A stretch of 64,000 nucleotides of DNA from Octopus vulgaris (lineage: Eukaryota), in contig OX597826.1 in NCBI GenBank assembly GCA_951406725.2, positions 49,910,001 through 49,974,000 of the forward strand, written 5' to 3'. A program made the translations under genes and the position numbers. A model generated the notes under the pieces. That model was not told where the DNA came from. It searched no databases and saw nothing but the letters and a program-made list of their open reading frames with translations. Shown here in pieces: positions 2,380-59,508 of this stretch; position 1 is the stretch's first letter, and each line of letters starts with the position of its first letter.

Positions 2380-3104
2380 AACACCTCGAAGTTATCTGTC
2401 CATTTTAGTAACTTTATTTTTACCAGTGAGAAATATATATTTTTGACAGCATAAAAAAAAATTTTATAAACATATTTATGGGAGATGTAGGTTGGGATTC
2501 CTCAATCATCGCTTTGTTCGTCACAGCAGAACAGTTTCTGACTGATGAGACATAACATGTCGAAACACAGGTGACAGAGAATCACCTGTGCTTATGAGTC
2601 GAGTATGTTACGAACACATAGTCGTAAACAAGAAGCGGCAACAGTGGCAACTGGCGTATTCACGTTTGAATCTGCCAGAATGTATCAAGAATAAATATGG
2701 CAAACAACATTTAGAATCTTGCTATTCACCGTAACGATATCAATTTCTCTCTCTCTTTCCCTTTCTCTCTCTCTCTCTCTCTCTTTCCCTCTCTAGCTAT
2801 CTATCTATTTATATATCTATCTTTCTCTGCCTGTCTGTTTGTCTGTTTCTCTCTCTCTTTCTAACAGACGCTGAGGACGGGTAACCATTCAGAAACTCGA
2901 GTCTGTGTGTATCACGTAAGGCTAGAGTTGGGAGCGATGACCACTCCTAACAAAAACTAATCGGACGCAGAATGTGTGTCGTTAGCCAGTTGGAGGAGAT
3001 GTCTTCTGGGGCTATAAACGTCAGTAGCACTGTCCTGTATAGGACGCTACACTTAGGTGGCAAATATATGTTACGGTTCCGCACAGAGGTTTAATAAATA
3101 TATA

Positions 3105-17138: not shown

Positions 17139-17765
17139 AGGCGAGCTGGCAGAAACGTTAGCACGCCGGGCGAAATGCATAGCGGTATTTCGTCTGTCTT
17201 TATGTTCTGAGTTCAAATTCCACCGAGGTCGACTTTGTCTTTCATCCTTTCGAGGTCCATAAATTAAGTACCAGTTACGCACTGGGGTCGATGTAATCGA
17301 CTTAATCCGTTTGTCTGTCCTTGTTTGTCCCCTCTGTGTTTAGCCCCTTGTGGGTAGTAAAGAAATAGGTATTTCGTCCGCCGCTACGTTCTGAGTTCAA
17401 ATTCCGCTGAGGACGACTTTGCCTTTCATCCTTTCGAAGTCGATTAAATAGGTACCAGTTACGCATTGGGATCGATGTAATCGATTTAATCCCTTTGTCT
17501 GTCCTTGTTTGTCCCTCCTATGTTTAGCCTCTTGTGGGCAATAAAAAAATAAGAATCGTTAGCACGCCGGGCGAAATGCTTAGCGCTATTTCCTTTGTAC
17601 TTCCGTTCTGAGTTCAAATTTCGCCGAGGTTGACTTTGCCTTTCATCCTTGCGTGGTCGATAAATTAAGTACCAGTTGCGTACTGGGATCGATCTAATCG
17701 TCTGGCCCTCTCCCCCAAAATTTCAAGCCTTTGTGCCTATAGTAGAAAGGATTAATATTATTGTT
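17139..17765 (+). mobile_element. Tandem trimer of Meta-like SINE units
   Basis: Three consecutive box B plus Meta-like domains; the second and third units are 5'-truncated. Confidence 0.85.
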
Positions 17766-36971: not shown

Positions 36972-36979
<8 letters not shown>

Positions 36980-37600
36980 TTAATAAGGGTGAGAGAATTA
37001 GATACTAATTTAATAGCATATCTATTCAACACCAAGTGACCATTCAACACATAGTGACCATTCTCTTATATTTATTTTTGCATAAAATGTTATAATATAT
37101 TATAAAATATTATAATAATCCAGGTTTCTCGAGGCACTGGGCCACTTGGTGTAGAATAGATATGCTATTAAATTAGTATCTAATTCTCTCACCCTTATTA
37201 ATTAATTATGATTATGCTACATTTATTTCTAAATGTAGTATTTGTTTCCGTGAAAGTTTGGCGCGCTGTTGGTAAGGGCATTTGAATTATAACGTCGGAT
37301 GTAATCAATTGAACCACACGTGTATTTATCGTTATGGTAAAATCTGGCGTGTGATAGTTTTGGCTGAGGAGCTACAAGTGGGTTTTTTGTAAGTAAAATT
37401 ACATTTAATTCATTAATAGCGAAACAATTGTCCCAAAATAATCTGTATTTTTGTTATTTTTTATTTGCCCTGTTCGTGTGAGCTAACAATCGTACTGACT
37501 TTCATAGGAAACATGTATTTTTGTGGTTGAAACCTTTTGGATTTTCTAGTGCTAGAATGAGCCACATAGTGACCATTCTCTTATATTTATTTTTATATTT
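36972..37600. mobile_element. (TA)n-flanked fold-back element with PLE-pLTR-like architecture
   Basis: 70-bp inverted repeat (36972-37041 / 37140-37209, 2 mismatches) plus a 32-bp direct repeat starting at 37048 and 37563. Confidence 0.6.
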
Positions 37601-48918: not shown

Positions 48919-49096
48919 GTGTGTGTGTATACGACGGGATTTTTTTCAAGTTTCCGTCGATCAAAGCCACTAACAAGAATTTGGTCGGCCTGAGGCTGTA
49001 ATAGAAGATACTTGTCCACGGTGTCACGCAGTGGGACTGAAACTAGAACCATATGGCCGAAAGCAAACTTCTTACCACACAGCCACATCTGCGCCT
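48757..49096 (-). mobile_element. CORE-type SINE (OR2-like)
   Basis: Family match; further minus copies at 54295-54705 and 55190-55553. Confidence 0.85.
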
Positions 49097-49125
49097 ATGT
49101 ACACACGCGCGCGCGCACATATATG

Positions 49126-49484
49126 ATCCGAAATATACAGTATTATATGTCTATCACGACTGATCTTAGCAATCACTTTCGCTCTTAGAATATAACGGAG
49201 TGTTAGGTAACAATCCGATTATATAACTTTAAGCTCATCAGAGTTAACCGATATGGAAAAGAATATGGCGACCGCTCTCTATTGTCAGAGGTGAATGGAC
49301 CTAAAAGGTATCCGAAATGCACAGTATTTTATGTCCATTACGGTGAATCTTAATCGGTTTCGCGCTAGGATTACAACGGTGTGTTAGGTAGCTATCTGAT
49401 TATGTAACTTTACACTCATTAGAGTTCGCCGGTGTGGAAAAGAATATTGCAACTACTCTCTTCTGTTGGAAGTGAATGAACCCA

Positions 49485-49487
<3 letters not shown>
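49126..49487 (-). repeat. Two diverged 184-nt tandem units, each with a hammerhead fold (retrozyme-like)
   Basis: ATCCGAAAT anchors at 49126 and 49310; colinear units; ends at (TA)n. Confidence 0.8.
49157..49250 (-). ncRNA. Type I hammerhead ribozyme with long stem II
   Basis: CGGTTAACT-CTGATGA-GC[long hairpin]GC-GAAA-GTGATTGC-TA-AGATCAGTCG. Confidence 0.7.
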
Positions 49488-49555
<68 letters not shown>

Positions 49556-49821
49556 TGCTGTTGACACCACCGGATTGAATGGTACTGTCCAGGTGTCGAA
49601 ACCACAATGATATCCGTGGGACAGCTGATGATGTAGGTATGTTGGATTGTTGGTATGGCTGTGGAATAATATTATACCACATCCTTTTGATATATATATA
49701 TAGAGAGAGAGACAGAGAGAGAGACAGAGAGACATACATACATACATACATACATACATACATACATACATACATACATACATACATACATACATACATA
49801 CATACATACATAGGTATTGTT

Positions 49822-59068: not shown

Positions 59069-59252
59069 ATTAGGGCTTAGTAAAATAAATTACTTTGCCA
59101 CATACTGAACTTAGTAGAAATAGCAGCCAAAAAAAAATTTTTTCTTAGCATTTCTACTACTTAAAGAAAATTTCTCTCAGATAATGTTTACTCCAGACAG
59201 CTCACGAAGGTTTGGAGGTAAATACAGAAAAATATCACAAGTACATAGATCG

Positions 59253-59315
59253 TTTGAGTACGTCAACGTTTCAAGATTAGCCAAATAAAATCAGCATTTC
59301 TTTCGTCAGCTCAAA
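59253..59315 (-). ncRNA. Intact type I hammerhead ribozyme
   Basis: TTTGAG-CTGACGA-AAGA[..]TCTT-GAAA-CG-TTGA-CG-TA-CTCAAA: all core nucleotides present and three paired stems. Confidence 0.85.
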
Positions 59316-59447
59316 ATTTCTTAATTTGGATTTATTTTACTAAGCCCTAATTATATAATGTAATATTTTGAATTCGCCTTAAATGGTCCTTTTACATACT
59401 GAACACTTGGTGAAATTGATTAATTAATTAATTTTACCCTCAATTGT

Positions 59448-59508
<61 letters not shown>

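What the first reader, a model, noticed from the sequence alone, without database searches (positions are those of the whole stretch)
49126..49487. 184-nt tandem retrozyme-like dimer with covarying hammerhead stems
Two diverged units each fold on the minus strand into a type I hammerhead with an unusually long stem II, and the UA sites are exactly 184 nt apart. Stems differ in sequence but keep pairing: stem I CGGTTAACT/AG(A)TCAGTCG versus CGGCGAACT/AG(A)TTCACCG, and stem II base GCT/AGC versus GTG/CGC. Unit 1 has an intact CUGAUGA; unit 2 has CUAAUGA and is probably dead. Known: tandem hammerhead repeats of a few hundred nt yield monomeric circular RNAs in other metazoans. Inference: remnant of a cephalopod circRNA retrozyme family.
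Basis: partly seen in the sequence, partly recalled or inferred. Interest (0 to 1): 0.8.

Follow-up and report, generated by a model that had tools for sequence, protein, structure and literature searches.

The report
Two joined hammerhead retroelement tail ends
Two decayed end-pieces of an abundant animal repeat, each with a hammerhead-ribozyme motif and an unusually long side arm, sit head-to-tail here; they likely come from two separately evolved ribozyme lineages joined by a Penelope-type retrotransposon enzyme, rather than from a family of 184-base RNA circles.

Summary
The dimer and both hammerhead cores are real. The units are 76.5% alike and the predicted cut sites lie 184 nt apart. 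Unit 1 passes a type I descriptor that 2 of 200 shuffled windows pass. Unit 2 carries G5A and a broken stem III. Hundreds of related contigs lie in each of four DNA runs, and stems I, II and III vary with their pairing kept, so the ribozyme was under selection.

The 184-nt period does not look like a family trait. Relatives that match the unit's 5' part continue for 100-200 nt into a shared, different sequence. Relatives appear to end 41 nt past the cut, in simple repeats. In one DNA run, the only contig of 34 that bridges the junction is this locus itself. The two units differ by double transversions that keep pairs, which suggests separate lineages.

Best reading: two 5'-truncated 3' ends of a longer, TA-targeting, Penelope-mobilised hammerhead element (Hydra-type end or longer retrozyme), joined head-to-tail. 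No cleavage or circle is shown. New member of a known kind.

The parts
49100..49125 (.). simple-repeat flank (CA/CG/TA) at the element's 3' end
   Evidence: sequence; some relatives also match to 49119-49120, i.e. have TA-like flanks at the same point (table 8)
49126..49166 (-). unit 1 tail, 41 nt after the predicted cut: 3' strand of stem I, then a 10-pair hairpin ending 2 nt from the element end
49167..49180 (-). unit 1 GAAA, stem III (AGUGAUUGCU, self-complementary with G-U pairs) and H17 = A at 49167 (predicted cut)
   Evidence: (self-duplex 10 of 10 pairs, -7.2 kcal/mol)
49181..49234 (-). unit 1 stem II, 54 nt, long interrupted hairpin
   Evidence: z -4.0, 1 of 500 shuffles; the deepest-covered part among relatives
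49235..49250 (-). unit 1 5' strand of stem I and intact core CUGAUGA
49251..49306 (-). unit 1 upstream part; relatives leave it at 49293-49300 into a shared longer sequence
   Evidence: table 7
49307..49309 (-). 3-nt linker at the head-to-tail junction (6-9 nt at 49301-49309 do not match the listed relatives)
49310..49350 (-). unit 2 tail, 41 nt, same hairpin as unit 1
   Evidence: (z -2.6, 4 of 200 shuffles)
49351..49361 (-). unit 2 GAAA, stem III with a 3-nt deletion (polymorphic), H17 = A at 49351
   Evidence: (table 4)
49362..49415 (-). unit 2 stem II, 54 nt, decayed
49416..49431 (-). unit 2 5' strand of stem I and core CUAAUGA (G5A, predicted inactive)
   Evidence: relatives mostly G at 49420
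49432..49487 (-). unit 2 upstream part, ending within a few nt of the same point as unit 1
49488..49552 (.). (TA)n microsatellite, likely the insertion target

Best explanation
The locus is a head-to-tail pair of hammerhead-bearing pieces of an abundant repeat family, likely the 5'-truncated 3' ends of a longer element from two separately evolved lineages, likely joined in a TA microsatellite by a Penelope-like reverse transcriptase/endonuclease. SHOWN: both hammerhead anatomies; many relatives; relatives that run on upstream; pair-keeping changes in stems I, II, III and the tail hairpin. INFERRED steps: (1) In the parent element the ribozyme sits 41 nt before the 3' end. Its short, self-complementary stem III would let two copies cleave as a dimer. 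(2) A Penelope-type enzyme nicks (TA)n and starts copying at the foot of the tail hairpin, which fixes the 3' end at 49126 and 49310. (3) Copying stopped about 140 nt upstream of the cut. A second RNA of a sister lineage was then added, by a template jump in the same event or by a later insertion at the first copy's end. (4) Both pieces have decayed since; unit 2 is likely dead and unit 1 may keep weak activity. On this reading 184 nt is the length of the truncated piece plus linker, not a family monomer. Whether the parent is an autonomous Hydra-type element or a longer non-coding retrozyme is open.
For: Family: 705, 824, 150 and 885 contigs laid at 80% or more in runs X1-X4. Summed depth peaks at 67,559, 82,605, 1,031 and 96,256 against 25-30 for the locus's own contigs; this suggests thousands of relatives but is not a copy number. 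Longer parent: in X2, 12 of 34 laid contigs are listed as leaving the head at 49293-49300 into related upstream sequence, median loose length 105-201 nt; the one listed contig that bridges the junction is the locus itself, with 0 differences, and depth at 49302-49305 equals its depth (15 of 27 loose ends shown). Fixed 3' end: depth rises about five-fold across 49126 in X1, X2 and X4; listed pieces begin at 49119-49126; tail relatives end in simple repeats. Ten of 24 Hydra-clade families that I tabulated from Craig et al. end 30-50 nt past their cut (36 nt in Hydra-1_Obim); nearly all Hydra families are listed with (TA)n preference and have short palindromic stems III. Six of 10 listed joints are opposite-strand, as expected for inverted Penelope insertions. 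Separate lineages: 2 double-transversion pairs in 17 between the units (P 0.0006 under a neutral model; 0.024 for any double change), plus a G-C/C-G swap in stem III against the relatives' majority. Tail hairpin: 10 of 10 pairs kept in both units, one changed on both sides. A Penelope-like enzyme nicks AT-rich DNA, also in its own pLTR, and starts inside a stem-loop of the RNA (PMC11167929, passages).
Against: Both units stop within a few nt of the same upstream point and share 4 of 6 bases beyond where the listed relatives leave. At 4 of the 13 positions I took where unit 1 departs from the majority, both units share the minority base. This fits common descent from a short tandem unit, and my reading needs an unexplained fixed stop. 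No TA remnant or target duplication separates the units. No relative was listed that ends at 49300-49306. Contigs show presence, not absence; old siblings of this decayed locus could fall below the 80% threshold; many rows were not shown (42 of 82 differences, 432 loose ends). No reading frame was linked to the family. 14 of the 24 Hydra families have longer tails. My search for template jumping in Penelope-like elements with hammerheads found 0 papers, so that step is recalled from other retroelements. The circle between the two cuts folds better than shuffles (z -2.6).
Confidence: 0.55

Rival explanations
1. An old, minor short-unit retrozyme: an internal deletion of the longer family made a roughly 184-nt unit (or a 368-nt two-ribozyme unit) that was mobile for a time. 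Tandem transcripts were cut at each hammerhead and closed into circles, and this locus is one of few survivors.
For: The array is almost exactly two units. The units share their upstream break point and minority bases. The 184-nt circle folds at -39.5 kcal/mol, 59% paired, z -2.6 (1 of 200 shuffles), and its rejoined stem I keeps 8 of 9 pairs. The size lies within the 170-400 nt of animal retrozymes (PMC7229834). Li et al. propose that retrozymes arise from Penelope ends by local tandem amplification (10.64898/2026.07.22.740005, Discussion).
Against: Units copied from one circle would start identical, so double-transversion differences are unexpected. The two stems III would mispair at 15.2-16.2 in a mixed dimer (read from the sequences and the relatives' majority), so they do not look co-evolved. 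Listed relatives continue into other sequence rather than into a tail. The fold z-score owes much to stem II alone.
Confidence: 0.27
2. One truncated insertion was duplicated locally (slippage or unequal exchange beside the microsatellite), and the copies then diverged by decay, with patches of gene conversion from other family members.
For: It explains identical boundaries, shared minority bases and a unique junction without a special mechanism. 27 of 39 differences are transitions.
Against: Neutral decay rarely gives two double-transversion pairs (P 0.0006; the model ignores CpG effects and the stem I bulge was placed by eye). Unit 2 equals the majority at 9 of 13 positions where unit 1 departs, and unit 1's departures include pair-keeping swaps on both strands of stems II and III, so conversion tracts must be added ad hoc.
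Confidence: 0.14
3. The hammerhead likeness is chance in an ordinary decayed repeat.
For: No Rfam match; the hammerhead is not the predicted lowest-energy fold.
Against: Descriptor passed by 2 of 200 shuffled windows; relatives restore G5 and show three pair types at the third pair of stem II; a perfect stem III palindrome in a relative.
Confidence: 0.02

Closest known systems
Type I hammerheads at the 3' ends of Hydra-clade Penelope-like elements, incl. Hydra-1_Obim of Octopus bimaculoides (Craig et al. 2021, PMC8557442; passages, File S1 Hydra sheet and File S2 read)
   Same: Type I core, short palindromic stem III, (TA)n target, element end a few tens of nt past the cut (36 nt in Hydra-1_Obim, 41 here), inverted truncated copies.
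   Different: Stem II is 54 nt against 10-24 nt in the 26 Hydra rows (counted by hand); about 50 nt is already listed for Selaginella PLE-X1. The hammerhead sequence differs from Hydra-1_Obim. No RT/GIY-YIG frame was linked to this family.
Metazoan non-LTR retrozymes of coral, mussel and axolotl (Cervera and de la Pena 2020, PMC7229834; abstract and two of six parts of the text read, supplement unreadable) and vertebrate retrozymes derived from Penelope ends (Li et al. 2026, 10.64898/2026.07.22.740005; abstract, most of Results, Discussion)
   Same: Non-coding, GC under 50% (38%), type I hammerheads in direct tandem at a spacing in the 170-400 nt range, dimer-type stem III.
   Different: The two units are 76% alike with lineage-level swaps rather than near-identical; the period was not seen in relatives; no circle or cleavage is shown; stem II is much longer than the canonical 4 bp.
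[quoted passage not shown]
   Same: G10.1-C11.1, larger helix II, palindromic helix III, predicted dimer activity, many consensus families with covariation within one genome, mostly single truncated copies.
   Different: Full 9-pair stem I with a bulge and a 54-nt stem II.
Poseidon element PAc of Anolis (Frangieh et al. 2024, PMC11167929; passages)
   Same: Fixed insertion end downstream of the hammerhead at a stem-loop; AT-rich target, own pLTR included.
   Different: Shown in vitro for PAc, only inferred here; in PAc, cleavage was not needed for insertion.

Membership tests
Type I hammerhead ribozyme | Core CUGANGA ... GAAA ... UH with stems I, II, III in type I order | tested here: met
   Unit 1 passes the descriptor. 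Unit 2 has G5A and a broken stem III and fails.
Type I hammerhead ribozyme | Stems kept by compensatory change | tested here: met
   2 of 17 pairs double-changed between units; stem III swap and three pair types in stem II among relatives (the two sides are not linked on single contigs in the table).
Type I hammerhead ribozyme | Site-specific self-cleavage | not testable with these tools
   Contigs show no RNA ends.
Non-LTR retrozyme with a 184-nt monomer | Family organised as tandem repeats with the hammerheads one unit apart | tested here: inconclusive
   Tandem at this locus only; listed relatives continue into other sequence and the one bridging contig of 34 is the locus. Leans against, but contigs cannot show absence.
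Non-LTR retrozyme with a 184-nt monomer | Non-coding unit of 170-400 nt, GC under 50% | tested here: met
   184 nt between cuts, 38% GC; no stop-free frame of 110 codons lies within the units, two frames from the microsatellite side overlap unit 2.
Non-LTR retrozyme with a 184-nt monomer | Highly self-paired circular monomer | tested here: inconclusive
   59% paired, z -2.6, much of it from stem II; the copy is decayed.
Non-LTR retrozyme with a 184-nt monomer | Expressed as linear and circular RNA | not testable with these tools
   Only contigs of runs guessed to be RNA were on offer.
Non-LTR retrozyme with a 184-nt monomer | Many copies of the hammerhead-bearing sequence | tested here: met
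   150-885 related contigs per DNA run.
Hydra-clade or other EN+ Penelope-like element end | Hammerhead near the 3' end with a short fixed tail | tested here: met
   41 nt in both units; relatives begin at 49119-49126; 10 of 24 Hydra families have 30-50 nt.
Hydra-clade or other EN+ Penelope-like element end | Insertion into (TA)n, 5' truncation, inverted copies | tested here: met
   (TA)n flank; opposite-strand joints among relatives. No inverted arm at this locus.
Hydra-clade or other EN+ Penelope-like element end | RT plus C-terminal GIY-YIG reading frame upstream, with clade motifs | not testable with these tools
   No genome held; laid contigs give at most 30 flanking letters.

The most novel reading that the evidence does not exclude
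The locus records a Penelope-type enzyme joining two different ribozyme RNAs end to end (or a two-ribozyme unit that was itself mobile). The sister lineages carry different self-complementary stems III that act as pairing codes, so each cleaves only with its own kind. A 54-nt stem II and a conserved tail hairpin would be the handle and start signal for the enzyme. The chimera could yield a new 184-nt circle, a snapshot of how short retrozymes are born from element ends.
Probability: 0.2. Interest if true: 0.55.

Novelty: new member of a known kind. Interest (0 to 1): 0.3.

Why it matters
As it stands this is one decayed locus of a known association: type I hammerheads at the ends of Penelope-mobilised repeats. 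My searches listed no paper on cephalopod retrozymes (3 papers held the terms, 2 listed; 4 papers, 2 listed) and none with the phrase 'long stem II' (0). A Hydra-type element with a hammerhead is already in print for an octopus, and unread supplements (PMC7229834, the bioRxiv preprint) may list more. Rfam missed both motifs, so long-armed hammerheads are likely under-counted. If the novel case holds, it gives simple bench tests of two open points: whether stem III palindromes make dimer cleavage lineage-specific, and how tandem retrozymes arise from Penelope ends.

Tried and rejected
Genome-wide copy search: not possible, no genome is held; I used public contigs instead. Rfam: no hammerhead match in 49120-49490; the 47-52 kb scan gave mostly microsatellite-driven miRNA hits and no hammerhead family.

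RNA: no RNA holder listed. In three runs guessed to be RNA (3 of 18 offered), 7, 1 and 1 related contigs lay on the junction stretch, none bridging it. These may be DNA, and this is no evidence for or against expression or circles. In X1, X3 and X4 no listed piece bridged the junction, and the depth in that bin is accounted for by tail copies alone; missing cover is not proof of absence.

The three 'skip' joints and the one 'goes back' joint are not deletions or circles: with the letters between counted they come to 181-184, i.e. single-unit relatives switching best match between the units.

Pattern scan: 0 matches in viral contigs. The 9 matches in metagenome contigs show no homology to the units (best E 0.07) and by eye no stem I; rejected as chance. 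Earlier-findings search by sequence: nothing, so I could not tie this family to the roughly 355-nt or 490-nt families noted elsewhere in this genome.

Ligation of two different cut monomers into a mixed circle: disfavoured, because the G-C pair in stem I links unit 2's core to its own tail (in place 8+8 pairs, swapped 8+7); weak. A second 184-bp tandem pair at 17184-17551 is unrelated sequence; the period is a coincidence. snRNA-type promoter: literature searches gave no usable mollusc consensus; left as a lead. Many contigs ending at 49258 are probably an alignment effect of two adjacent mismatches, not a start site.

Full report
Observation. The window is microsatellite-rich animal-type DNA; the organism was not identified. 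The finding is a direct repeat of two units, 49126-49306 and 49310-49487, 76.5% identical (E 1e-33), with no third copy in the window. It lies between a short simple repeat and a (TA)n run. On the minus strand each unit has a type I hammerhead layout: stem I 5' strand, core, 54-nt stem II, GAAA, stem III, UA, stem I 3' strand. The UA ends are 184 nt apart; the cores are 181 apart because unit 2 lacks 3 nt of stem III. Unit 1 passes a descriptor met by 2 of 200 shuffled windows; unit 2 does not. Unit 1's stem II is well folded (z -4.0) and unit 2's is not (z 0.25). In neither unit is the hammerhead the predicted lowest-energy fold. Rfam finds no hammerhead here.

First, unit 1's stem III is self-complementary: two copies pair at 10 of 10 positions (-7.2 kcal/mol). 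Short palindromic helices III go with dimeric cleavage in metazoan hammerheads (PMC4209133; PMC7229834). Second, the 41 nt after each cut fold into the same 10-pair hairpin, ending 2 nt from the unit's end. All 10 pairs are kept in both units, one with both sides changed and two with one side changed. Only unit 2's tail beats shuffles (z -2.6 against 0.5).

Relatives. No genome is held, so I laid public contigs on the locus. Four DNA runs (three of organism A, one of organism B) gave 705, 824, 150 and 885 contigs at 80% or more. Summed depth peaks on stem II at two to three thousand times the depth of the locus's own contigs in X1 and X2; the tool warns that this is no copy number. Among the 40 of 82 differences shown: relatives laid on unit 2 mostly have G at G5 (1408 of 1595, 1577 of 1696, 66 of 71 and 2812 of 2949 depth units). 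The third pair of stem II is G-C in most and A-U in a minority, against U-A in unit 1; the two sides are not linked in the table. Stem III is ACCGAUUGGU in the majority, a C-G/G-C swap against unit 1, and a perfect palindrome in one contig of run X7. One contig each in X1 and X2 carries 3 letters at unit 2's deletion, so the deletion is polymorphic.

Is 184 nt the family's unit? I laid X2 and three RNA-like runs on the junction. In X2, 34 contigs were laid. The one listed as bridging the junction is the locus itself (0 differences), and depth at 49302-49305 equals its depth. Twelve contigs are listed as leaving the head at 49293-49300 into related upstream sequence with median loose lengths of 105-201 nt, and two tail contigs end in a CA-rich repeat (15 of 27 loose ends shown). 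In one search depth rises about five-fold across 49126 in X1, X2 and X4, several pieces begin at 49119-49126, and 6 of 10 joints are opposite-strand. So the relatives that were listed are longer than 184 nt upstream and appear to end 41 nt past the cut. Contigs cannot show absence, and decayed siblings may fall under 80%.

Are the two units copies of one template? They differ at 39 of 176 columns. Two of 17 pairs in stems I and II are double transversions that keep pairing. A neutral two-lineage model gives this with P 0.0006 (0.024 for double changes of any type), and three in 19 pairs with P 7.5e-6 if the stem III swap against the majority is counted (no CpG effect modelled). At 13 positions taken where unit 1 departs from the majority, unit 2 equals the majority at 9 and shares unit 1's base at 4. 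The units therefore look like related but separately selected lineages. Against a simple chimera, both stop at nearly the same upstream point and share 4 of 6 bases beyond where listed relatives leave. I cannot explain that without a fixed stop or common descent.

Mechanism. The anatomy matches the 3' end of endonuclease-positive Penelope-like elements: (TA)n target, 5' truncation, inverted copies and a 30-40 bp tail (PMC8557442). From its supplement I computed that 10 of 24 Hydra-clade families end 30-50 nt past the cut, Hydra-1_Obim at 36 nt (one row mapped at the 5' end and one reverse-strand duplicate left out). [quoted passage not shown] I infer that two such RNAs of sister lineages were copied from the foot of the tail hairpin and joined here, in one event or two (0.55). 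Rivals are an old short-unit retrozyme sub-lineage (0.27), local duplication with conversion (0.14) and chance (0.02). A circle between the two cuts is structurally possible (z -2.6; stem I 8 of 9) but is not shown.

Comparison and novelty. It works like the dimer-type hammerheads of Penelope ends and animal retrozymes. Membership of the 184-nt retrozyme class is unproven and leans negative. Membership of the Hydra clade cannot be tested without the reading frame. Li et al. argue that retrozymes derive from Penelope ends, so the two labels may be close; that text does not mention molluscs. The 54-nt stem II exceeds the 10-24 nt of the Hydra rows but has a precedent of about 50 nt in Selaginella PLE-X1. 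Earlier AI notes on this genome report long-armed hammerheads and longer retrozyme families many times; these are unchecked leads, and sequence look-ups did not link them to this family. Supplements I could not see (PMC7229834; the bioRxiv preprint) may bear on novelty.

Verdict: a real but decayed hammerhead pair from a large family; the 184-nt circle is not supported as a family trait. New member of a known kind, interest 0.3.

Noticed in passing
window 36972-37600, + strand, core at 37364: Complete type I hammerhead with a 50-nt stem II and a perfect stem III palindrome (ACAAUUGU), in a TA-embedded element with a 70-nt inverted arm and a 32-nt direct repeat; typical Penelope-type end, unrelated in sequence to the finding.
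   Followed up: partly
window 59075-59450, - strand, core at 59309: Complete type I hammerhead with a 30-nt stem II and near-palindromic stem III, in a TA-embedded element with an inverted end of about 30 nt seen by eye.
   Followed up: partly
window 2530-2600, + strand: CUGAUGA, short perfect stem II, GAAA and a 9-bp hairpin that lacks the U expected after it; may be one of the non-canonically ordered hammerheads that earlier notes describe.
   Followed up: no
window 49580-49640, + strand: GAAAC precedes CUGAUGA, with a hairpin between and a short enclosing stem; hammerhead-like pieces in unusual order, in a separate insert just right of the (TA)n run.
   Followed up: no
relatives' upstream loose ends, in register about 49309-49324: A roughly 16-nt motif shared by the upstream variants, some 50-65 nt before the start of stem I. 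From memory it resembles an snRNA proximal sequence element; both units here lack it. Earlier notes report such promoters in hammerhead repeats of this genome. Untested.
   Followed up: partly
window 49351-49352: The 3-nt deletion in unit 2's stem III is polymorphic: contigs in runs X1 and X2 carry three more letters.
   Followed up: partly
window 17184-17551: Unrelated tandem pair with period 184, 86% alike, SINE-like by recall.
   Followed up: no
window 48933-49100: A common SINE-like repeat (recognised from memory, not tested) directly left of the finding.
   Followed up: no
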